64,000 bases of DNA from Candidatus Neochristensenella gallicola. GTDB taxonomy: Bacteria > Bacillota > Clostridia > Christensenellales > QALW01. Position 1 is the stretch's first letter; each line of letters begins with the position of its first letter. This document shows positions 7,573-60,312 of this stretch, in pieces. The stretch spans positions 5,955 through 69,954 of the forward strand of contig CAJFSR010000014.1 of assembly GCA_904419735.1 (NCBI GenBank). Direction: 5' to 3'. Under the pieces are notes generated by a model that saw only the letters and a list, made by a program, of their open reading frames with translations, was not told where the DNA came from and made no database searches. Position numbers and translations under genes: made by a program.

Positions 7573-7710
7573 GTTCTTTCAGGGGTAGCAAAAAGCAGGG
7601 GGGCGGCTCTTGCGGCCCGTGCGGGCCGCCGGGCCGGGCCTGGGCCCGGTCCGGGCAGGCATTTTGCCTGCCAAGAGCCGCCCCCTGCTTTTTGCTACCC
7701 CTGAAAGAAC
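7573..7710 (+). repeat. GC-rich cloverleaf palindrome, copy C1
   Basis: A 37-bp outer stem (GTTCTTTCAGGGGTAGCAAAAAGCAGGGGGGCGGCTCTT / AAGAGCCGCCCCCTGCTTTTTGCTACCCCTGAAAGAAC) closes three GC hairpins: GCGGCCC-GTGC-GGGCCGC, CGGGCCGGGCC-TG-GGCCCGGTCCG and GGCAGGC-ATTTT-GCCTGCC. Lies 45 nt 3' of recR. Confidence 0.85.
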
Positions 7711-7746: not shown

Positions 7747-8017
7747 CCCCCCGGTTTACAAGGAACTGCACGGTCAGGATGAGTAAAATCTGCCTTTTTC
7801 TGTGCTGCTTTCATTCCATGCACGCTACCTGCCGTTCGGCTATGCTTTACCCGGCATAAATTTTATACATTCTGACTCTACAGCCCCGAACGGAGAGAAT
7901 TTCTTTATTTTTAAAGGCAAACGATAGAAGCGTACTGGATGTATACCCCTTGAGGATAACTCAGAAAAAGAAGGAATTATCCCGTTATGAGGCTTGCAGT
8001 TCCTTGTAAACTGAGGG
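7747..8017 (+). mobile_element. MITE family A, copy A1 (271 bp)
   Basis: Ends are TA|CCCCCCGGTTTACAAGGAA and TTCCTTGTAAACTGAGGG|TA. Collinear with the reference copy 34172-34438 over its whole length. No ORF. Confidence 0.85.
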
Positions 8018-10057: not shown

Positions 10058-10283
10058 CCCTCAGTTTACAAGGAAGACGGTCAGAAGGCATAAAATATGC
10101 GTTCTGCTGCGTTGCTTTGATTCCATGTACGCCCGGTACATGTCGTTTCTGCGCGCTTTACCTGGCACAAATTTTATGCCTTTTGACTCTGGAGACCTCA
10201 AACGGAGAGAATTTCTTCATTTTCAAGGCAGACGAAGAAGGCGTACTGGGAGTACGCTGATTGAGGATAACGCAGAAAATGAT
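10058..10283 (+). mobile_element. MITE family A, copy A2, right end truncated
   Basis: The left end TA|CCCTCAGTTTACAAGGAA is intact. Homology to the reference copy stops after GAGGATAACGCAGAAAATGA (about 10283) and the right TIR is absent. Confidence 0.8.
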
Positions 10284-13112: not shown

Positions 13113-13212
13113 TTAAGCAAGAGCAGGATATTGCAGAGAAATTTCCGCTTTATGCCGATGGGCTCTGAGGTTTTCGGGGTTGGTAGGCCGGTTGCGGCCA
13201 TTTTGCAATTAA

Positions 13213-13341
13213 GGCGCATAAGAAAATGCCCAGGGGGCGGCGTTCGCGGCCGCAGGCCGCGCGGCCGGGCCGAAGGCCCGGCCGGAGGCAGGTGCTTCGC
13301 GCCTGCCAAACGCCGCCCCCCTGGGCATTTTCTTATGTGCC
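13213..13341 (+). repeat. GC-rich cloverleaf palindrome, copy C2
   Basis: The outer stem GGCGCATAAGAAAATGCCCAGGGGGCGGCGTT / AACGCCGCCCCCCTGGGCATTTTCTTATGTGCC closes three hairpins: CGCGGCC-GCA-GGCCGCG, GCCGGGCC-GAA-GGCCCGGC and GGCAGGTGC-TTC-GCGCCTGCC. Lies 100 nt 3' of copA. Confidence 0.85.
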
Positions 13342-13539
13342 TGAACAACGAAGGTAATGGTCAGCTCGGATTAAAAGCACTGTATAATGGCGCAGATATT
13401 GCCCGCAAAAGCTTAAAAGCAGGAAAATACAGATACACTTAGACAATAATGGTGCTGCGGCCAAAAGCCGGCGGCTTGGCCCAAGGCCGGAGGGCGGCGG
13501 TGCGTCAGGCGGTTAAGCTGTTATATATGCGTGTTTTTG

Positions 13540-16017
13540 TTATATATATCTGCCCGTAATGCTGTTGCTGCTGCCGGCAATTTGCTGAGGAGTTCCAACT
13601 GCTACTATCTGTCCTCCGGCTTCGCCCCCGCCCGGCCCCATATCTATTATATAGTCAGCATTGCGGATAATATCTAAATCGTGCTCAATTACAATAACTG
13701 TTGCACCGCTGTCAATTAAAGTCTGGAACACGCGCAGCAAAACTTGAACGTCCAGCGGATGCAGACCAATGCTCGGTTCGTCAAATACAAAAACAGAATC
13801 TGTCTGTGTTTTTCCAATTTCGCTGGCCAGTTTGAGCCTTTGCGCTTCTCCGCCTGAAAGGCCGGGCGTTTCTTCGCCAAGCGTCAAATACCCCAGTCCA
13901 AGCTGCTTAAGTATATTTAATTTTTGATTCACGGTTTTCATTTCGCTGCAAAACTCTATAGCGGAATTTACATCCATATCCATTAATTCAGGTAAAGAGC
14001 AGGATTGCCCTGCCTTGTTTGTTAGTTTTATACCGTATGCTTCTCTTGAATAGCGTGAGCCGCGGCAGTCGGGGCAGGGAATATTGACATCGGGCAGGAA
14101 TTGGACATCCAGGCTGACAATGCCTGTGCCGTCACAGCCCGGACAGCGCAGGCTGCCGGTGTTATAGGAAAAGTCGCTGGCCTTAAAGCCTCTTTCCTTG
14201 GCAATTCTCTCTCTTGCATAGAGCTTTCTGAGCTCATCGTGCACTCCTGCATAGGTCGCTACGGTGGAGCGTACATTGACGCCGATAGGCGCGGCGTCAA
14301 TCAGCTTGATATGCTTTATTCCTTCGGCTTTTATTTCACGGATGTGCTTGGGCAGCTTAACGCCATTTATCATTGTCTCCAGTGCAGGCACCAGGCTTTC
14401 TAGGACCATTGTCGTTTTCCCGGAGCCGGATACGCCGGTCACGACGGTAAGCCGTCCTTTTGGGATATCCACCTCCAGCGGTTTTACGGTGTGGAGCTGA
14501 TTAGTGGCCAGGCGGAGCGTTCCGTTTTTGAACATATCGTCAAGGGCAGGGCAGTGCCGCAGCTTGGTCCGGGCTTTTCCGGACAGGAAACTCCCGATTT
14601 GCGAAGAAGGGTTTTCCTGTATGGAAGGGACTGTGCCTTGGGCGATGACCTGTCCGCCCTTTGCTCCCGCCTGCGGGCCCATTTCAATAATCCAATCTGC
14701 TTCCTTCAGAATCTGGGTATCGTGGTCAACAAGAATTATCGAGTTTCCGTCTGCAACTAGGTCGTGCATTACGCCGTTAAGCCCAACAATATTGGAAGGG
14801 TGCAGCCCGATAGAAGGCTCGTCCAGTACATATAAAACGCCGGTTGTACGGTTGCGGACAGCACGGGCAAGCTGCATCCTCTGCCGCTCTCCCGTTGAAA
14901 GGGTAGAGGACGAGCGGTCAAGAGAAAGGTAGCCAAGCCCCAGGTCCATCAGCCGCCGGGCGGTATTTATAAAGGTTTCGCAAATGCTTTGAGCCATAGG
15001 GCGCATTTCCTCGGCCAGGGTTCCGGGTACATCCCGCACCCAGCAAACCAGTTCGGATAGGGGCATCATGCAGGCCTGGTCAATGGAAATCCCGCGCAGC
15101 TTTGGAAAGCGGGCCGCTGCGGAAAGCCGTGTCCCGCCGCAATCCGGGCAGATATCTTCTTTCAGGAATTTTTCCACCCGCTTCATACCTTTTTCGTCCT
15201 TGACCTTAGCCAAGGCGTTTTCCACTGTATAAACGGCGTTATAGTAGGTGAAATCCAGCTCTCCCGCCTGATTGGAGTTTTTGGCCTTGTAAAAAATATG
15301 CTTCTTGACTGCCGGGCCGTGGTATACTATCTCTTTTTCCTGCGCGGTGAGTTCCCGGAACGGGATGTTTGTGCGGACGCCCATTTTCCTGCAAACATCT
15401 GTCATCAGCGACCACATAAGGCTGTTCCACGGGGCCACAGCGCCCTCATCAATGGTGAGCGAATCGTCCGGCACTAGGGATTCTATATCTACCGTGCGGA
15501 TACTTCCCGTTCCGCCGCACTTAGGGCAGGCTCCCTGTGAATTAAATGCCAGTTCCTCAGCAGAAGGAGCGTAAAAATGCATGCCGCATTCAGGACAGAT
15601 TAGTTCTTTGCCCGCCGCAACTGCCAGGGAAGGGGAAAGGTAATGTCCGTTCGGGCAGCGATGGCTTGCCAGGCGTGAATACATCAGGCGCAGGCTGTTG
15701 AGCAGTTCTGTGCCGGTGCCGAAAGTGCTGCGGATACCGGGGATGATAGGCCTTTGGTGCAGTGCGAGCGCCGCAGGTACATAGAGCACCTCTTCTACAG
15801 CCGCTTTTGATGCCTGGGTCATTCTTCTGCGAGTATAGGTGGACAGCGCCTCCAGGTACCGCCTTGAGCCTTCTGCATAGAGTACGCCTAGTGCCAGCGA
15901 GGATTTTCCTGAGCCTGAAACGCCGGCAATCCCCACAATTTTATTTAAGGGGATGTCAACATCTATGTTTTTTAAATTGTGCACCTTTGCGCCCCTGACG
16001 AGCATTTTATCAATCAT
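13540..16017 (-). CDS. UvrA-like excinuclease ATPase paralogue (short, 825 aa)
   Basis: Two ABC ATPase halves (GVSGSGKSSLA and GVSGSGKTTMV, with LSGGE signatures) and UvrA-type zinc modules (CPxC...CxxC). About 115 aa shorter than a canonical UvrA of roughly 940 aa. Confidence 0.85.
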   Translation of the reverse strand: MIDKMLVRGAKVHNLKNIDVDIPLNKIVGIAGVSGSGKSSLALGVLYAEGSRRYLEALSTYTRRRMTQASKAAVEEVLYVPAALALHQRPIIPGIRSTFGTGTELLNSLRLMYSRLASHRCPNGHYLSPSLAVAAGKELICPECGMHFYAPSAEELAFNSQGACPKCGGTGSIRTVDIESLVPDDSLTIDEGAVAPWNSLMWSLMTDVCRKMGVRTNIPFRELTAQEKEIVYHGPAVKKHIFYKAKNSNQAGELDFTYYNAVYTVENALAKVKDEKGMKRVEKFLKEDICPDCGGTRLSAAARFPKLRGISIDQACMMPLSELVCWVRDVPGTLAEEMRPMAQSICETFINTARRLMDLGLGYLSLDRSSSTLSTGERQRMQLARAVRNRTTGVLYVLDEPSIGLHPSNIVGLNGVMHDLVADGNSIILVDHDTQILKEADWIIEMGPQAGAKGGQVIAQGTVPSIQENPSSQIGSFLSGKARTKLRHCPALDDMFKNGTLRLATNQLHTVKPLEVDIPKGRLTVVTGVSGSGKTTMVLESLVPALETMINGVKLPKHIREIKAEGIKHIKLIDAAPIGVNVRSTVATYAGVHDELRKLYARERIAKERGFKASDFSYNTGSLRCPGCDGTGIVSLDVQFLPDVNIPCPDCRGSRYSREAYGIKLTNKAGQSCSLPELMDMDVNSAIEFCSEMKTVNQKLNILKQLGLGYLTLGEETPGLSGGEAQRLKLASEIGKTQTDSVFVFDEPSIGLHPLDVQVLLRVFQTLIDSGATVIVIEHDLDIIRNADYIIDMGPGGGEAGGQIVAVGTPQQIAGSSNSITGRYI

Positions 16018-16203
16018 TGTTTTTGCCTCACTTTAAATTCCATTAGTTGTTTTATAACAAAGCTGTCTTTTTGAATACACAGTTCAAGATTAATCTGCAA
16101 TGTAGTATAATATAAATGTCAAAAACGTCAAGCGCGCCGGTACTGGTTTTTATTTCTGCAAAAGTTTGTATTGTCCTTTACCGTATTTCATATAGTAAGG
16201 ATA

Positions 16204-16471
16204 GCGTTAGTTTACAAAGAATAATGCGTTTAAAAACAGCTGGATTTGCGTTCCTGCTGAATTGCTTTGACTCATGTACGCCCGGCACATGCCGTTTCTG
16301 GGCCTTGCAGGAATGCAAATTTAATTATTTTTGGCTCTGCGGCCTCAGCCTGTGAAAATTTGTATGTTTTTAAGGCAGACGAGGGAAACGTGCAGAAACA
16401 CCGGCTGAGGATAATACAGAAAACGGGCAAAATTTCCCGGCTTCGGCGTGTTATCCGCTGTACATTGTTGC
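16204..16471 (+). mobile_element. MITE family A, diverged subfamily, copy A3 (268 bp)
   Basis: Ends are TA|GCGTTAGTTTACAAAGAATAATGCG and CGTGTTATCCGCTGTACATTGTTGC|TA. Shares the central blocks CATGTACGCCCGG, AAGGCAGACGAGGGA and GAGGATAA with the main family. The closest copy is 40527-40853. Confidence 0.7.
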
Positions 16472-16628: not shown

Positions 16629-16655
16629 TTATCCTGAAATTCAAGTATAACTAAT

Positions 16656-16686
16656 AAAGGCGGCGCAATAAAATTGCGCCGCCTTT
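16656..16686 (-). terminator. intrinsic terminator of hsp20 (palindromic, could act in both directions)
   Basis: AAAGGCGGCGCAA-TAAAA-TTGCGCCGCCTTT, a 13-bp stem located 14 nt after the hsp20 stop. Confidence 0.6.
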
Positions 16687-16699
16687 ATTAATTAATCAT

Positions 16700-24085: not shown

Positions 24086-25746
24086 TTAAACTATAGGTTT
24101 ATACTGGCTTTGCTCCGCAGGCTTAAGCCGTTTGAACGTATGAGCATATATTCCTAAAGAAATGGGCAGCATAATTATTTCCACGGCGAGCTGTGTCCAT
24201 ATCATGCCGTAGAGGCCAAAAAGCCGGTTCATCAGTATAAGCAGGGGGATGTTCAGCAAACCCTGGCGGCTGAAGGTAAGAAGGGCTGACTGCGCTCCCT
24301 TTCCCATGGCCTGGAGGGTATAGCTTATAAGAAAATTTACCGAAGTCAGGGGCACGGCCAGACAGGCAATGCGCAGGAAAGAGGCGCCCAAGGTGCTGGT
24401 CTGCTCTTCCCGTATGAACAGACGCAGTATTTGGGGCGCTCCCAGAGCAAAGCAGGCTACAAAGCAAGCTGACATAACAAGGGCGGTTTTCCAGGAGAAT
24501 ACGGCGACGTGGCGCATGCGCTTATAGTTTTTGGAGGCAAAAGTATACCCTAAATTGACAAGGGGATATACGCCTCCAGCGGCCTGATTCCGGCATTTTC
24601 TGCGTCGTCGTCAATAGGTGTACGTTCAGTACACCTCATTCCGCTTCCTTGAAAATGCCGAAATTAAACCTGCTGGAGGTCGAAGAGTCAGACAGCGGCC
24701 GTTTGGGTGCCCTGCAAGGCGCTTGAACGACGTGTACTGGACGTACACGGAGCGAAAAGCAACAGCGAAAAGCAACACAGCAGGACACCGAAACAGCCCT
24801 GTCCTGACCGTATATGCCCTTGTCAATTTAGGGTAGCCTACCAAAGGCATAAAACCCTGGCACAGCCCATGGATACGTTGAGCGGGAACTGATCTATGCG
24901 CTTGACTATGCCGTATGCCGCTACGGGTATATCCCCGTAATTCGAGGCCAGACTCACCATTACCATATTTGAAGCGTTGCCCAGAGCGGTAGCCAGGGCG
25001 GAAGCCAGCCCTACTGAAAAAACCGGCCGGGTGAAGGAGAAGGAAAAATATTTAGGATTCAGCGAAAGCTGGGTTCTGCCATGCAGCCGTTTGAACTGGA
25101 AGGCAAAAAAAGCGACAGAGGCCGCATTGGAAAAGGCGGTGGCTATTGCCGCGCCCGCAACGTCCATATCAAATAAGAATATGAGCACCGGATCCAGTAT
25201 TACATTCAGAATGCCCCCGAACATCATGCCTGCACTGGCCTGTTTGGCGTGTCCTTCGCTGCGCAGCAGATGGCCTAAGGTCAAGCTGGCTACAGTGGGT
25301 ATTCCGCCCAGAACAACCACCCATATAAGATAGCTTTCCGCATAACTGTAAGTATCGCTGCTTGCTCCTAAAAAATTCAAAAGGGGGTTCCGCGCAAAAA
25401 GGGTAACCAGAGAAAAAACCAGAGCCGCCGCTGCGCCGCCCCAGATGCCGAAAGCTGAGACATGCTTTATTTCCTGGTGCTTCATTGCTCCCAGCATTCG
25501 GGAGATAAGGCTGCTTGCGCCTAAACCGAACAGGTTCCCAATAGCGGTAAGCAGGTTGAACCAAGGGGAAACCAAGGAAACTGCGGCCACCATTAAAGGG
25601 TTCCCAATCTGGCCTATGAAAAAAGTGTCCGCCAGATTGTATATCATGGTAACAACCTAGCTTATAATGGTGGGAATGGCCAGAGTAGCTACGGCCCTTG
25701 GTACGCTCATGCTCTCAAACAGCTCTTTTTCGTTTTGTTTGTCCAT
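24086..25746 (-). pseudogene. MATE family efflux transporter inactivated by three lesions
   Basis: Lesion 1 is an in-frame TAG at 25657-25659 within PTIIS*VVTMIYNLADTFFIGQ, a position that my recollection of MATE N-termini would fill with Gln (unverified). Lesion 2 is a 1-nt frameshift near 24865-24875 (NVSMG then LCQGFMPLVGY in another frame). Lesion 3 is a MITE insertion at 24548-24833. Confidence 0.85.
24548..24833 (-). mobile_element. MITE family B, copy B1 (286 bp), inside the MATE gene
   Basis: TA|CCCTAAATTGACAAGGGGATATACG ... CGTATATGCCCTTGTCAATTTAGGG|TA, a 25-nt TIR matching 24/25. Carries an internal 13-bp tandem duplication GCGAAAAGCAACA x2. Strand is given relative to family A reference copy 34172-34438. 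Confidence 0.9.
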
Positions 25747-25935: not shown

Positions 25936-26207
25936 CCCTCAGTTTACAAGGAATTACATGCCTCGTAACGGGATAATATCTTCATTTTCTGCGTTATCCT
26001 CAATCGTAGTACGTCCAGTGCGCCTTTATCGCTTGCCTGGAAAACAAAGAAATTCTCGCCGTTTGAGGCCGCAGAGTCAGAATGCATAAAATTTATGCCG
26101 GGTAAAGCGCGCTTGAACGACATGTACCGAGTGTACATGGAATCAAGACAGCGCGCCGGTACGCAATTTTATGCATTCTAACCGTGCAGCTCTCTGTAAA
26201 CTGAGGT
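25936..26207 (-). mobile_element. MITE family A, copy A4 (inverted orientation)
   Basis: CCCTCAGTTTACAAGGAA ... CTCTCTGTAAACTGAGGT|TA. The left flank is TG instead of TA. The right end abuts the stop codon of the 26207-27568 gene. Confidence 0.85.
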
Positions 26208-32287: not shown

Positions 32288-32539
32288 CCCTCAGTTTACA
32301 AGGAAGACGGCCAGAAGGTATAAAATATGCGTCCTGCTGCGTTGCTTTGACTCAATGTACGCCCGGTACCTGTCGGCACAAATTTTATGCCTTCTGACTC
32401 TGAGAGCTCAAACGGAGAGAAATTTCTTCAATTTTAAGGCCAATGATGGAAGCGTACTGGGAGTAAGCCCATTGAGGATAACGTGGAAAATGAAGAAATT
32501 ATCTCGTTATGAGGCGTATAATTCCTTGCAAATTACAGT
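32288..32539 (+). mobile_element. MITE family A, copy A5 (252 bp, decayed right TIR, internal deletion)
   Basis: TA|CCCTCAGTTTACAAGGAA ... TTCCTTGCAAATTACAGT|TA, with about 17 bp missing after CGGTACCTGTCG relative to the reference copy. Confidence 0.8.
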
Positions 32540-34093: not shown

Positions 34094-36095
34094 ATGAAGC
34101 TTATATTGAGGTTTATAAAGCCCCACTGGAAATTGTGCGCGGCTACCATTTTGCTTTTGATTGTGGACGTACCCTCAGTTTACAAGGAAGACGGTCAGAA
34201 GGCATAAAATATGCGTCCTGCTGCGTTGCTTTCGCTCCAAGTACGCCCGGTACATGTCGTTTCTGCGCCTTGCATGACACAAATTTTATGCCTTCTGACT
34301 TTGAGACCTCAAACGGAGAGAATTTCTTCATTTTCAAGGCAGACGAAGAAAGCGTACCGGGGAGTACGCTGATTGAGGATAACGCGGAAAATGAAGAAAT
34401 TATCACTTTGAGGCGTGTAGTTCCTTGTAAACTGAGGGTAACGGGAACCTTAATAATTTCTACGTTTGCCGCGGAAATGCTCAATCAGGGGACATCGGGA
34501 GCGTCCTTTGAAATGCTGCTTAATACCGGGCTGAAAATGGCGGCTGCATCAATTATCTCCAGCGTATGCGCTATTTTGGGCGGATATGCCTGCGCCGCTC
34601 TTTCAGCGCGGGTAGGCAAGGATATGCGGCTGGCTATTTATAATAAATCCTTAAAACTCGCCATATATGATTTCCGCCAGTTTGGAACGGCTTCTATTAC
34701 CACCAGAACGGTTTCGGATATTACCACCATTCAGTTTGCATTGACCAGCTTTATACAGATGGTGCTGCCTGTTCCGGTAATTTTCGTTGTGGCGCTTCTT
34801 TTGGCCTTCGGCCTGGATGTGGAAATGGGCGCTATACTGTTAATTGCAGTAGCGGTTGTTTTAGTTATCGCCCTGTTTATTATGAAAAGCGCTTCGCCTT
34901 TGTTTAGAAAATTACAAAAGCTGCTGGACAGGATGACCACTATTTTACTGGAAAACATAACCGGAGTCCGCGTGGTCCGCGCCTTCAATAATGAGCGCAG
35001 GGAGGAAGCGCGCATGGGAGAGGCTTTTTCCAATTACGCCCAGACTTCCATAAAGGCCAACCGGCGGTTCGCCAATCTGGACGGACTTTCCTTCCTGTTC
35101 ATAAATCTTTTTATAGTTATTGTATATTGGCTCAGCGGCGGGAGAATCAGCTCCGGGCATCTTCAGATTGGCGATATAACCGCCGTTATCGGTTATGCAA
35201 TGATGGTGCTGTTCTTTTTGATGATGGCCCAGATGGTTGTTCTGACCATGCCCCGCGCTTTGGAATGCTGCGGCCGCGTGCAGGCGGTTCTGGAGCATAC
35301 GCCCGAAATCCAGGACATGGTTCCGGAAAAAATGCAGGCTGCGTGCGAAGAGAAGAAGGACGAGGTGCTGGCATTTAAAGATGTTTCCTTTAGGTTTGCA
35401 GACGCGGAGGAGGATACTTTAAGCCATTTGAATTTCGTATGCAGACGAGGGGAGACCACGGCGATAATAGGCGGCACAGGCAGCGGCAAGTCCACCGTAG
35501 CTTCCCTGATCCTGCGCTTTCATGATGTTACCGGGGTGCGGTATGCTTAAACGGCACGGACGTCCGGCAGCTTACCCAGCATTATCTTAGGGATCACTTA
35601 GCCTATGTCCAGCAGAAGGCGTGGCTGTTTTCCGGCAGCATTGCGGACAATCTGCGGTACGGCAATAAAGACGCCGGGGAAGAAGAATTAATGCATGCAG
35701 CAGACGTAGCGCAGGCGGGGGATTTTATACGCGCTTTGCCTGAGGGGCTGGATTCCTATGTGGCGCAGGGCGGCACTAATTTTTCGGGCGGGCAGAAGCA
35801 GAGGCTGTCCATTGCCCGCGCGCTGGTGAAAAAGCCTGAGCTCTACATATTTGACGACAGCTTTTCCGCCCTGGATTTTAAAACTGATGCGGCTCTGCGC
35901 AAGGCGCTGGCGAAGGAAACCAAGGATTCCGCAGTGTTGATTATTGCCCAGAGGGTGAGCACCATCCAGCATGCAAATCAAATAGTAGTGCTTAACCAGG
36001 GGCAAATGGCCGGCATCGGCACCCATGAGGAGCTGCTGCAAAATTGTCCGGTTTATCGGGAAATCTATGAATCGCAGACCAAGGAGGCACATTAA
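34094..36095 (+). pseudogene. ABC exporter (fused TMD-NBD, MdlB/MsbA type) disrupted by a MITE insertion and a frameshift
   Basis: The N-terminus MKLILRFIKPHWKLCAATILLLIVDV (34094-34171) is separated from the rest of the TMD by the element at 34172-34438. The Walker A region GGTGSGKST is followed by a -1 frameshift in a G-run (35533-35536). The NBD continues in another frame (LSGGQKQRLSIARAL, IFDDSFSALD). Confidence 0.85.
34172..34438 (+). mobile_element. MITE family A, reference copy A6 (267 bp) inside the ABC exporter gene
   Basis: Has a perfect 20-nt inverted terminus including the flanking TA (TACCCTCAGTTTACAAGGAA / TTCCTTGTAAACTGAGGGTA). TA lies on both sides (34170-71 and 34439-40). 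Removing the element plus one TA restores the reading frame. Confidence 0.92.
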
Positions 36096-40526: not shown

Positions 40527-40853
40527 TTGTCAGCGAGCAGGGTATAATGCGGTTTAAAACAGCTTAATTTTCCTTCCTGCTGTGCTGTTTTTTCTCAATA
40601 CACGCCAGGTACAGCCGTGTATGTACCTTGCAGGGACGCAAATTCAACCGTTTTTGACTCTGCGGCCCCGGCCCATGGAAAATTGCCCGCTTCCAAGGCA
40701 GACGAGGGAGGCCCAGAGGCGCGCCCGCTGATCGGGGATAACGCCGAAAAGCATACCGGCCTGGGATAGCGCATAAAAGTACAACAACCGGGGTCAGCGC
40801 AGAAAACGGGCGAAATTTCGGGCTGCGGCGCATTATTCCCTGTACGCTTAACT
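40527..40853 (+). mobile_element. MITE family A, diverged subfamily, copy A7 (about 327 bp, ends approximate)
   Basis: TA|TTGTCAGCGAGCAGGGTATAATGCGGTTTAAAACAGC ... CAGAAAACGGGCGAAATTTCGGGCTGCGGCGCATTATTCCCTGTACGC. Collinear with 16204-16471 and shares AAGGCAGACGAGGGA and GGGGATAACGCCGAAAAG with the main family. Confidence 0.6.
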
Positions 40854-54898: not shown

Positions 54899-55171
54899 GC
54901 CTAAATTGACAAGGGGATACACGCCTCCAACGGCCTGATTCCGGCATTTTCTGCGTCGTCGTCAATGGGCGTGCGTTCAGTACGCCTCATTCCGCTTCCT
55001 TAAAAATGCCGGAATCAAACCTGCTGGAGGTCAAAGAGTCAGACAGCGGCCGTTTGGGTGCCCTGCAAGGCGCTTGGACAACGTGTGCTGGACGTACGCG
55101 GAGCGAAAAGCAGCACGGCAGGACACTCAAACAGCCCTGTCCTGACCGTATATGCCCTTGTTAATTCAGGG
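54899..55171 (-). mobile_element. MITE family B, copy B2 (273 bp)
   Basis: Collinear with B1 but lacks its 13-bp duplication. The left end is decayed (GCCTAAATTGACAAGGGGATACACG). The right end is TATATGCCCTTGTTAATTCAGGG|TA. Confidence 0.8.
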
Positions 55172-55455
55172 TAAGCGTAAAAGAATATGATAGAGATGTC
55201 TTTTATAAGGGAAGAAGGTAAACGCTCCCGACAGGAAGGAAAAGGTGATAAAACTTTTTAAAGGGAGCAGGCCAACGCCTTTTATGTGCCGGCAGGCGAC
55301 CGGGGCTTTCGGCCTTTAGACCAAAAGCCCTGTTTGACAGGTGCCTGTGATTATTATAATTAGATGAAAAAGCAATCTCCAATTTGGATTGAACCGTTCC
55401 AGGCCGCAGCGCATCAGACGGTCAAGCCGCCGGCCGTTCCGTTAATATGTTTCAG

Positions 55456-60154: not shown

Positions 60155-60312
60155 ATTTTTATTTTCAGTGAGGCCGGCTTAAGGGCCGCTCCCCGCGGCG
60201 TTGGGCAGGGCTGGAAGCCCTGCCCTGGCCGGGCAACAGCCCGGCTGCGCGGCCGAAGGCCGCGAACGCCGCGGGGAGCGGCCCTTAAGCCGGTCTCCCT
60301 GAAAATAAAAAT
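60155..60312 (-). repeat. GC-rich cloverleaf palindrome, copy C4 (core inverted, longest outer stem)
   Basis: The outer stem ATTTTTATTTTCAGTGAGGCCGGCTTAAGGGCCGCTCCCCGCGGCGTT / AACGCCGCGGGGAGCGGCCCTTAAGCCGGTCTCCCTGAAAATAAAAAT closes three hairpins: GGGCAGGGC-TGGAA-GCCCTGCCC, GCCGGGC-AACA-GCCCGGC and CGCGGCC-GAA-GGCCGCG. Confidence 0.85.

What the first reader, a model, noticed from the sequence alone, without database searches (positions are those of the whole stretch)
13213..13341. Compensatory double substitutions keep the cloverleaf stems paired
The C2 outer arm CATAAGAAAATGCCCAGGGGGCGGCG pairs with CGCCGCCCCCCTGGGCATTTTCTTATG. The C3 arm CATTAGAAAAGGTCCGGGGCGGCG pairs with CGCCGCCCCGGACCTTTTCTAATG. 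The two copies are homologous but differ at three stem positions, and each difference is changed on both arms at once. Hairpin a is CGCGGCC/GGCCGCG in C2 and C4 but CGCGGCG/CGCCGCG in C3. Hairpin c is GGCAGGCGC/GCGCCTGCC in C3 but GGGCAGGGC/GCCCTGCCC in C4. The distal outer-stem sequences of C1 and C4 are almost unrelated to C2/C3 yet remain self-complementary. This is covariation for structure, at RNA or cruciform-DNA level, rather than conservation of primary sequence. A palindrome-templated repair or conversion mechanism would produce the same pattern.
Basis: seen in the sequence. Interest (0 to 1): 0.7.

Follow-up and report, generated by a model that had tools for sequence, protein, structure and literature searches.

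The report
Cloverleaf-shaped palindromic repeat with flipping core
This is one copy of an undescribed family of GC-rich, cloverleaf-shaped palindromic repeats lying between genes of an uncultured gut Clostridia bacterium; its paired arms do change together, but most likely because DNA replication or recombination copies one arm from the other (the centre is even found flipped between strains), not because an RNA shape is under selection.

Summary
The window holds four copies of a 131-158 nt element: C1 7573-7710, C2 13209-13345, C3 16494-16628, C4 60155-60312. Each has a long outer stem and three GC-rich hairpins. About 13 more distinct copies came from related gut metagenome contigs and MAGs.

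Arms within a copy are 94% complementary; arms of different copies are 43% alike. On an 11-copy sequence alignment, 22 of 37 pairs show changes on both sides (0 of 500 shuffles reach this). One orthologous locus in a sister species shows two-sided changes in three helices and mirrored remodelling of the outer arms.

The pattern looks mutational rather than selected at RNA level. At the MGMT locus the core lies in one orientation in 4 assemblies and the opposite in 4, and an arm mismatch swaps sides with it. The C2 core is also inverted, and decayed, in the sister species. Core orientation relative to the neighbouring genes is 4 same and 4 opposite. Both strands fold equally well.

Arm homogenisation plus spacer inversion is the published signature of template switching at inverted repeats.

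There is no Rfam, tRNA, terminator, target-duplication or transposase match. I file it as a new variant of REP/MITE-like palindromic repeats. Function unproven; a strong 3'-end hairpin is possible.

The parts
13212..13342 (+). Copy C2 of the cloverleaf repeat (the finding); the three hairpins read a-b-c on the + strand
   Evidence: It lies 97 nt downstream of the copA-like stop codon and 195 nt downstream of the convergent uvrA-like stop codon.
13212..13244 (+). C2 outer-stem 5' arm, including the conserved junction GCGGCGTT
   Evidence: fold. It pairs with 13309-13342, with one G.T and one C bulge.
13245..13261 (+). C2 hairpin a, CGCGGCC-GCA-GGCCGCG; the most conserved hairpin of the family
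   Evidence: 7 distinct 5' arms among 16 copies.
13262..13284 (+). C2 hairpin b, CGGCCGGGCC-GAA-GGCCCGGCCG
   Evidence: 15 distinct 5' arms among 16 copies; own-arm complementarity 98%.
13287..13307 (+). C2 hairpin c, GGCAGGTGC-TTC-GCGCCTGCC, with one T.G wobble
13309..13342 (+). C2 outer-stem 3' arm, including the conserved junction AACGCCGC
   Evidence: Strain L121 has one C fewer in the C run, which removes the bulge.
7573..7710 (+). Copy C1; a-b-c on the + strand; 45 nt downstream of the recR stop codon
   Evidence: An ortholog is present in the sister species but is cut by the contig end.
16494..16628 (-). Copy C3; a-b-c on the - strand; 35-bp perfect arms; 72 nt downstream of the hsp20 stop codon
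   Evidence: No copy at this site in sister species L129.
60155..60312 (-). Copy C4; a-b-c on the - strand; 48-nt arms; lies between a crp-like gene and the pyruvate:ferredoxin oxidoreductase gene, both on the + strand
   Evidence: Strain L124 has a different 5' arm and different neighbouring genes.

Best explanation
C2 is one member of a dispersed family of non-coding, GC-rich nested palindromes in an uncultured gut Clostridia lineage. Each copy has outer inverted-repeat arms of 8-50 bp, a conserved junction (GCGGCGTT ... AACGCCGC) and three short hairpins. Copies sit in intergenic DNA, mostly 0-120 nt after a stop codon.

The paired positions change together because the two arms of each inverted repeat are repeatedly copied from one another at the DNA level. 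The process is replication template switching at hairpins (quasipalindrome correction), possibly with recombination between the longer arms. A new mutation on one arm is either erased or written onto the other arm. Each copy therefore stays self-complementary while drifting away from the other copies.

The same process inverts the spacer. That explains why the three-hairpin core, and apparently some hairpin loops, are found flipped. It can also lengthen or remodel the arms.

Shown here: the family, its anatomy, its placement, the covariation, the physical inversions, and the gain or loss and decay of copies between sister species.

Inferred: the enzymology (template switching versus recombination), how new copies spread, and any cellular effect. 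The most plausible effect is a very stable hairpin at mRNA 3' ends, together with fragile or recombinogenic sites in the chromosome.
For: (1) A copy's own arms are 94% identical (as inverted complements) against 43% across copies. Twenty-two of 37 pairs show two-sided changes, which 0 of 500 shuffles reach.

(2) Physical inversion at the MGMT-Wzy locus. With an identical MGMT protein, the core is a-b-c on the gene strand in L139, L141, L142 and L144, and inverted in L140, L143, L145 and L149. These are independent assemblies made with different assemblers. The flanks differ by only 0.8%. The single arm mismatch (T in one arm, A-variant in the other) swaps sides together with the core, so a segment bounded by the outermost ~10 bp of the arms was turned over.

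(3) A second inversion: the C2 core is opposite in sister species L129/L130, seen in two assemblies.

(4) The ortholog pair L139/L146 shows two-sided changes in three helices. These are the junction stem (G-C to A-T), hairpin b (two A-T to G-C) and hairpin c (G-C to A-T). There is also a mirrored replacement of 17 nt by 7 nt in both outer arms, and the hairpin-c loop GAA becomes its exact reverse complement TTC.

(5) Among close strains all new differences are one-sided, mostly G/C-run length, as expected for raw mutations awaiting correction.

(6) Core orientation against gene direction is 4 same and 4 opposite. Both strands fold equally well as RNA or DNA.

(7) The literature reports that template switching between inverted-repeat arms homogenises the arms, inverts the spacer and can expand the arms (PMC8604942; PMC13100816 abstract). 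It also reports that this process maintains perfect inverted repeats in bacterial non-coding DNA (PMC5941160).
Against: No experiment or read-level data show the process happening.

The spacer inversions reported in the paper read (PMC8604942) are of spacers of a few bp. An ~80-nt core flanked by ~40-nt arms may instead need recombination.

Conservation of hairpin a and of the junction sequence suggests some constraint, such as a protein or enzyme recognition site, that homogenisation alone does not explain.

All six G.T wobbles in the inner hairpins lie on the a-b-c strand, and all are C-to-T. This hints at a strand-specific single-stranded state.

The strong bias for positions just after stop codons is also what an RNA 3'-end element would show.
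Confidence: 0.6

Rival explanations
1. The element is a structured RNA at the 3' end of transcripts, acting as a protective hairpin, terminator-like barrier or processing site. Selection on RNA pairing drives the compensatory changes. Because the whole element is palindromic, either orientation gives nearly the same fold, so core flips are neutral.
For: Copies lie 0-120 nt after stop codons in 13 of 14 assignable cases, often between convergent genes. Folding energies are extreme, -120 to -140 kcal/mol. In the few copies where the sense strand is unambiguous, the wobbles fall on the sense strand (3:0; 6:1 by the looser count). REP and bcr1 repeats are reported to be transcribed and to show compensatory changes (PMC3184786; PMC3733652).
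Against: There is no U-tract and no terminator call at C1-C3, and no Rfam family matches. Selection cannot hold 35-50 bp stems perfect, because one mismatch costs a small fraction of the stability. Transversion-type double changes dominate and G.U intermediates are rare. One ortholog has decayed and another site is empty in the sister species. The wobble counts are too small to be significant.
Confidence: 0.2
2. The element is a non-autonomous mobile element moved as single-stranded DNA by a hairpin-recognising enzyme, such as a Y1/HUH transposase of the IS200/IS605 or RAYT type. New copies are made as perfect fold-backs, so both arms descend from one parental arm at each transposition.
For: The family is dispersed and gained or lost between sister species: C3 is absent from L129, and nothing lies downstream of recR in L133-L136. 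No target-site duplication was found, as for HUH elements. The hairpin a plus junction sequence is conserved. C2 and C3, 3 kb apart, have the most similar arms in the window. All six inner-hairpin wobbles are C-to-T on one strand.
Against: No transposase appears among the genes called or scanned in the window and in the loci where genes were called. There is no conserved terminal motif or flanking tetranucleotide. Orthologous copies diverge in place while keeping their arms paired, which calls for in-situ homogenisation anyway.
Confidence: 0.12
3. Only the core is the repeat. It inserts into the loops of pre-existing hairpins such as terminators, so the outer arms are target DNA and their complementarity predates the insertion.
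For: Distal arm sequence and length are locus-specific, from 8 to 50 bp. Copies sit where terminators are expected.
Against: The proximal ~20 nt of the arms are recognisably homologous across copies (A-rich, then GCCC, then a G-run, then CGGCG). C2 and C3 arms are about 65% identical along their full length. The arms lack flanking T-runs. Pre-existing perfect palindromes of 35-48 bp are not seen at the empty sites examined.
Confidence: 0.06

Closest known systems
REP / BIME / REPIN sequences (with RAYT transposases) of proteobacteria
   Same: Both are extragenic, GC-rich palindromes with many copies. Both sit mostly after coding regions and between convergent genes, and both often cluster with other hairpins into mosaics (L042, L120, L127). 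Structure is conserved more than sequence (PMC3733652).
   Different: These elements are 4-5 times longer (131-163 nt against 20-40 nt). They have a four-way junction with three inner hairpins. They have no GTAG or CGTC tag, the host is a Clostridia lineage, and no RAYT gene was seen.
bcr1 repeat of the Bacillus cereus group
   Same: Both occur in Bacillota, are about 150 nt, are dispersed and non-conserved in location. bcr1 has a predicted cruciform-like fold kept by compensatory base changes, with stability lost in some copies (PMC3184786).
   Different: The sequence is unrelated. bcr1 has two stem-loops and 5-bp direct repeats. Here there are three hairpins inside a long variable stem, no direct repeats, and a demonstrated inversion of the core.
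Concerted evolution of inverted repeats by replication template switching (quasipalindrome correction; Ripley model)
   Same: Arm homogenisation, multinucleotide changes, spacer inversion and arm expansion are all described for that process (PMC8604942, PMC13100816, PMC5941160, PMC7202029). All of these patterns are observed here.
   Different: In the paper read (PMC8604942) the inverted spacers are a few bp and the search covered spacers up to 70 bp. Here the pattern applies at two nested levels of a repeat family, with an ~80-nt structured spacer.
MITEs with long terminal inverted repeats (Correia, ERIC, RUP, Nezha)
   Same: Both are small, non-coding, dispersed and fold into long hairpins.
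   Different: There are no conserved termini and no target-site duplication. A genuine MITE-like family with 18-nt terminal inverted repeats is present in the same window and looks quite different.
Integron attC sites
   Same: In both, structure rather than sequence is conserved, lengths are variable and the central part may be branched. The description of attC is from my own knowledge.
   Different: There are no R'/R'' core sites (GTTRRRY), no cassette array and no integrase. The neighbours are housekeeping genes.

Membership tests
Rfam structured RNA families (any) | Covariance-model score at or above the family's gathering threshold | tested here: not met
   There were 0 hits at gathering thresholds over the whole window. 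With permissive E-values only spurious matches appeared: 37.9 bits against a threshold of 270 for a Brucella sRNA, plus miRNA hairpins.
tRNA / tmRNA (true cloverleaf) | ARAGORN-detectable cloverleaf with a 7-nt anticodon loop and T and D arms | tested here: not met
   ARAGORN found 0 genes in the window. The loops here are 3-5 nt.
Intrinsic (Rho-independent) terminator | GC-rich hairpin followed directly by a T-run | tested here: not met
   No terminator-like site overlaps C1, C2 or C3. The sequences after the 3' arms lack T-runs.
REP / REPIN | Short (20-40 nt) imperfect palindrome with a conserved GTAG or CGTC tag at one end | tested here: not met
   The elements are 90-163 nt with three inner hairpins, and no common tag is seen at the arm ends. 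The definition is taken from PMC3733652.
REP / REPIN | Extragenic, mainly downstream of genes or between convergent genes, many copies | tested here: met
   All copies are intergenic, and 13 of 14 assignable copies lie within about 120 nt of a stop codon. There are 4 copies in 64 kb.
REP / REPIN | Cognate RAYT (Y1 transposase) gene flanked by the repeats | not testable with these tools
   No complete genome of the lineage is held. No transposase appears among the genes called or scanned.
MITE | Conserved terminal inverted repeats shared by all copies | tested here: not met
   The distal arm ends differ between copies; cross-copy arm identity is 43%.
MITE | Target-site duplication (direct repeat) flanking each copy | tested here: not met
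   No consistent direct repeat is seen at the arm ends of 16 copies.
bcr1 (B. cereus group repeat) | About 155 bp of bcr1 sequence, 5-bp direct repeats, two-stem cruciform-like fold | tested here: not met
   The architecture differs and there are no direct repeats. The bcr1 description is from PMC3184786. Sequence similarity to bcr1 itself was not computed.
Inverted repeats evolving by template switching or arm conversion (a process, not a sequence family) | Arms of one repeat more alike than orthologous or paralogous arms; changes appear on both arms | tested here: met
Inverted repeats evolving by template switching or arm conversion (a process, not a sequence family) | Spacer inversion between otherwise near-identical sequences | tested here: met
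   At the MGMT locus, 4 assemblies have one orientation and 4 the other, and the arm mismatch swaps sides with the core. The C2 locus is inverted relative to the sister species. The hairpin-c loop is GAA in L139 and TTC in L146.
Inverted repeats evolving by template switching or arm conversion (a process, not a sequence family) | Dependence on replication rather than on RecA-type recombination | not testable with these tools
   This needs genetics.
Integron attC | R''/L''-L'/R' sites with GTTRRRY, cassette context, intI nearby | tested here: not met
   No such motif is seen at the arm ends. The neighbours are recR, copA, uvrA-like, hsp20 and PFOR.

The most novel reading that the evidence does not exclude
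The conserved junction plus hairpin a, together with the fact that every wobble in the inner hairpins is a C-to-T change on the a-b-c strand, might mean that the core acts as a strand-specific single-stranded four-way junction. This would be ssDNA or RNA recognised by a dedicated, still unidentified enzyme. On that reading the family would be a new kind of structure-defined mobile or invertible element in gut Clostridia, not a passive palindrome.
Probability: 0.15. Interest if true: 0.65.

Novelty: new variant of a known kind. Interest (0 to 1): 0.45.

Why it matters
The case shows clearly that textbook covariation, meaning compensatory double substitutions in every helix, can arise in bacterial intergenic repeats without selection on an RNA fold. 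The same loci show the DNA-level signature of arm-to-arm copying, namely inversion of the spacer. Screens for structured RNAs that rely on covariation would be misled by such families.

The family also marks places where metagenome assemblies break and where strains differ by inversion or rearrangement. It could serve as a natural system for studying template switching at nested palindromes in anaerobic gut bacteria.

Tried and rejected
- Rfam at gathering and at permissive thresholds gave nothing real.
- ARAGORN found no tRNA or tmRNA.
- The terminator scan found no site at the elements.
Only L042, L045 and L117 were genuine.
- The viral-contig scan gave 0 hits. The plasmid collection gave no match.
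- A stricter pattern on metagenome contigs gave 9 genuine loci.
- My own position-indexed pair table was discarded as a test, because it counts only positions already paired in the minimum-energy fold.
- Wobble strand asymmetry was tried as an RNA-versus-DNA discriminator. The counts depend on the boundaries used (6 against 13; 11 against 4) and are too small, so the result is inconclusive.
- The search for target-site duplications and conserved termini found none.
- Transposases were looked for among flanking genes and the large ORFs of the window, and none was found.
- The recR-side ortholog of C1 could not be completed, because the contigs end inside the element.

Full report
**1. What is at the coordinates**

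Positions 13212-13342 form a nested palindrome. A 33-nt outer stem encloses three GC-rich hairpins. Hairpin a is CGCGGCC-GCA-GGCCGCG, hairpin b is CGGCCGGGCC-GAA-GGCCCGGCCG, and hairpin c is GGCAGGTGC-TTC-GCGCCTGCC.

An inverted-repeat scan and a covariance model find exactly four such elements in the 64-kb window:
- C1, 7573-7710
- C2, 13209-13345
- C3, 16494-16628
- C4, 60155-60312

C3 and C4 have the hairpin order a-b-c on the minus strand. Each copy folds as an outer stem plus three hairpins. The energies are -112 to -141 kcal/mol as RNA (z = -12 to -17) and -70 to -85 kcal/mol as DNA, and both strands fold about equally well. Two details needed correcting. C2 has a one-base bulge and two G.T pairs. 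C2 and C3 arms differ by three substitutions plus a 2-nt length difference, all of them mirrored.

**2. Context**

All four copies are intergenic, among housekeeping genes.
- C1 lies 45 nt after recR.
- C2 lies between the convergent copA-like and uvrA-like genes.
- C3 lies 72 nt after hsp20.
- C4 lies between a crp-like gene and pyruvate:ferredoxin oxidoreductase.

Nothing matches Rfam, tRNA or tmRNA, or a terminator consensus. No transposase appeared among the genes called or scanned.

The organism is an uncultured gut Clostridia lineage. Near-identical contigs occur in many gut metagenomes. The closest named protein homologs are from Candidatus Aphodoplasma and Candidatus Monoglobus.

**3. 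The family**

Pattern scans and the covariance model R1 recovered about 17 distinct copies. They come from two MAGs, 'Selenomonadales bacterium CIM:MAG 469' and 'uncultured Clostridiales UMGS1037', and from gut metagenome contigs. Several of those contigs are 97-99% identical to parts of the window.

All copies share the conserved junction GCGGCGTT ... AACGCCGC (GCGGCTCTT in C1 and L122b; GCGACG in three others) and three hairpins. Total length is 90-163 nt because the outer arms range from 8 to 50 bp.

Copies lie 0-120 nt after a stop codon in 13 of 14 assignable cases. They sometimes stand next to one another and to further GC-rich hairpins (L042, L120, L127). No target-site duplication or common terminal motif is present. 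A related family occurs in a neighbouring species; it has the same junction but AT-rich hairpins.

**4. Covariation is real**

On a sequence-only alignment of 11 copies, 95.1% of cells pair, against 76.7% after shuffling. Twenty-two of 37 pairs carry changes on both sides, and 0 of 500 shuffles reach this number. Sliding the partners destroys pairing.

A copy's own arms are 94% identical as inverted complements, against 43% across copies. Hairpins b and c have 15 and 16 different arm sequences among 16 copies, yet are 97-98% self-complementary.

The element between the MGMT and Wzy-like genes in the window's species (L139) and in its sister species (L146) differs as follows:
- a G-C to A-T change in the junction stem;
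- two A-T to G-C changes in hairpin b;
- a G-C to A-T change in hairpin c;
- a replacement of 17 nt by 7 nt that is mirrored in both outer arms.

L146 comes from the same samples as L129/L130. So arms do change together in orthologs.

**5. Why I think the cause is mutational (DNA level)**

(a) Inversion at the MGMT locus. The MGMT protein is identical in all of these loci. The core reads a-b-c on the gene strand in four assemblies (L139, L141, L142, L144) and is inverted in four others (L140, L143, L145, L149). The eight come from different samples and assemblers. The flanks differ by 0.8%. The only arm mismatch swaps sides together with the core. A segment bounded by the outermost ~10 bp of the arms was therefore physically turned over. 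The stretches of exact identity between the arms are 18-30 nt, shorter than the final k-mer sizes I assume these assemblers used, so an assembly artefact is unlikely. The first hint was L123 against L125.

(b) A second inversion. The C2 core is inverted in the sister species, in two assemblies. That copy is also decayed and lacks its distal 3' arm.

(c) Loop inversion. The hairpin-c loop is GAA in L139 and its exact reverse complement TTC in L146. The C4/L124 loop difference (TCC against GAA) is one step from an inversion.

(d) Orientation. Core orientation against the flanking gene direction is 4 same and 4 opposite.

(e) Recent changes. Among strains 97-99% identical, all differences inside the elements are one-sided, mostly run-length changes in the G/C run next to the junction.

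(f) Type of change. Double changes are largely of transversion type (GC to CG, AT to TA), and G.U states are rare. In addition, arms of 35-50 bp are kept nearly perfect although a single mismatch would barely alter stability.

(g) Gain, loss and decay. C3 has no counterpart in the sister species, and the recR-downstream site is empty in another relative.

The literature describes template switching between inverted-repeat arms as producing arm homogenisation, spacer inversion and arm expansion. It also reports that the process maintains perfect inverted repeats in bacterial non-coding DNA (PMC8604942, PMC13100816, PMC5941160, PMC7202029). The pattern here matches that description.

**6. What remains open**

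An RNA role is not excluded. The placement just after stop codons and the extreme stability would suit a 3'-end protective hairpin. REP and bcr1 repeats are precedents for transcribed repeats with compensatory changes (PMC3184786, PMC3733652).

The wobble strand test was inconclusive. One detail is unexplained: all six wobbles in the inner hairpins are C-to-T changes on the a-b-c strand.

How new copies arise is unknown. There are no target duplications, no termini and no enzyme. The C4 ortholog in strain L124 has an unmatched 5' arm and different neighbouring genes, with the breakpoint at the core/arm boundary. This is either a rearrangement through the repeat or a chimeric contig.

**7. Verdict**

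The family itself appears undescribed. It has no Rfam match, and three of my four literature searches, which looked for comparable repeats, found no description of it; the fourth concerned the mechanism. It belongs to the known kind of REP/BIME/bcr1/MITE-like palindromic repeats. Its unusual features are the cloverleaf layout and the demonstrably invertible core. Interest is moderate.

Noticed in passing
window 7749-8016, 25937-26206, 34173-34437 (complete); 10059-10281 and 32289-32532 (truncated); fragments 16178-16386 and 40614-40750: A second, unrelated repeat family: a MITE-like element of about 265-270 bp with an 18-nt terminal inverted repeat, CCTCAGTTTACAAGGAAC. It is polymorphic. Strain L118 carries the 54-bp right end that is missing at 10281. 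The copy at 7749 lies in a ~330-bp stretch absent from sister species L129. A ~265-bp insertion whose ends resemble this family's terminal repeat distinguishes haplotypes at the MGMT locus.
   Followed up: partly
L124 3367-3468 compared with window 60155-60312: The C4 ortholog in a 97.4%-identical strain keeps the core and the 3' arm. Its 5' arm and everything beyond it are replaced by unrelated DNA, a peptidase M20 gene plus a terminator-like hairpin. The breakpoint is exactly at the core/arm boundary. This is either a rearrangement through the repeat or a chimeric assembly.
   Followed up: partly
L136 14135-14268 (-) and L133 14946-15079 (+): A sister cloverleaf family occurs in a neighbouring species (recR 89% identical). 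It has the same G-rich junction (GGGGCGGCGCGG ... CCGCGCCGCCCC) but long AT-rich inner hairpins, and the two copies again show compensated differences.
   Followed up: partly
16 copies pooled; in the window: C1 hairpin b and C2 hairpin c (13293): All six G.T wobbles inside the inner hairpins lie on the a-b-c strand, and all are C-to-T relative to the family consensus. Wobbles in the outer arms are 5 against 4. The sample is small and the pattern is unexplained.
   Followed up: partly
window 24549-24835 and 54900-55173: Two copies of a ~290-bp repeat are 92-93% identical. The first 54 nt of the unrelated MAG contig L045 also match both copies.
   Followed up: no
L129 17381-17441, L130 7615-7672, L137 end, L117 start, L127 start: Contigs of several independent metagenome assemblies end inside a cloverleaf copy, so the family is a recurrent assembly breakpoint.
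   Followed up: no
window 13540-16017 (-): The 825-aa UvrA-like paralog next to C2 and C3 has homologs of 85-92% identity labelled from widely different Bacillota, including Dialister, Candidatus Monoglobus and Candidatus Aphodoplasma. RecR drops to 75% outside the two sister species. This suggests horizontal spread of the UvrA-like gene.
   Followed up: no
window 16648-16694: A separate 22-bp-arm hairpin, TAACTAATAAAGGCGGCGCAAT / ATTGCGCCGCCTTTATTAATTA, lies directly after hsp20, between that gene and C3. It is probably the real hsp20 terminator. It is conserved in strain L121 and recognisable in sister species L129.
   Followed up: no
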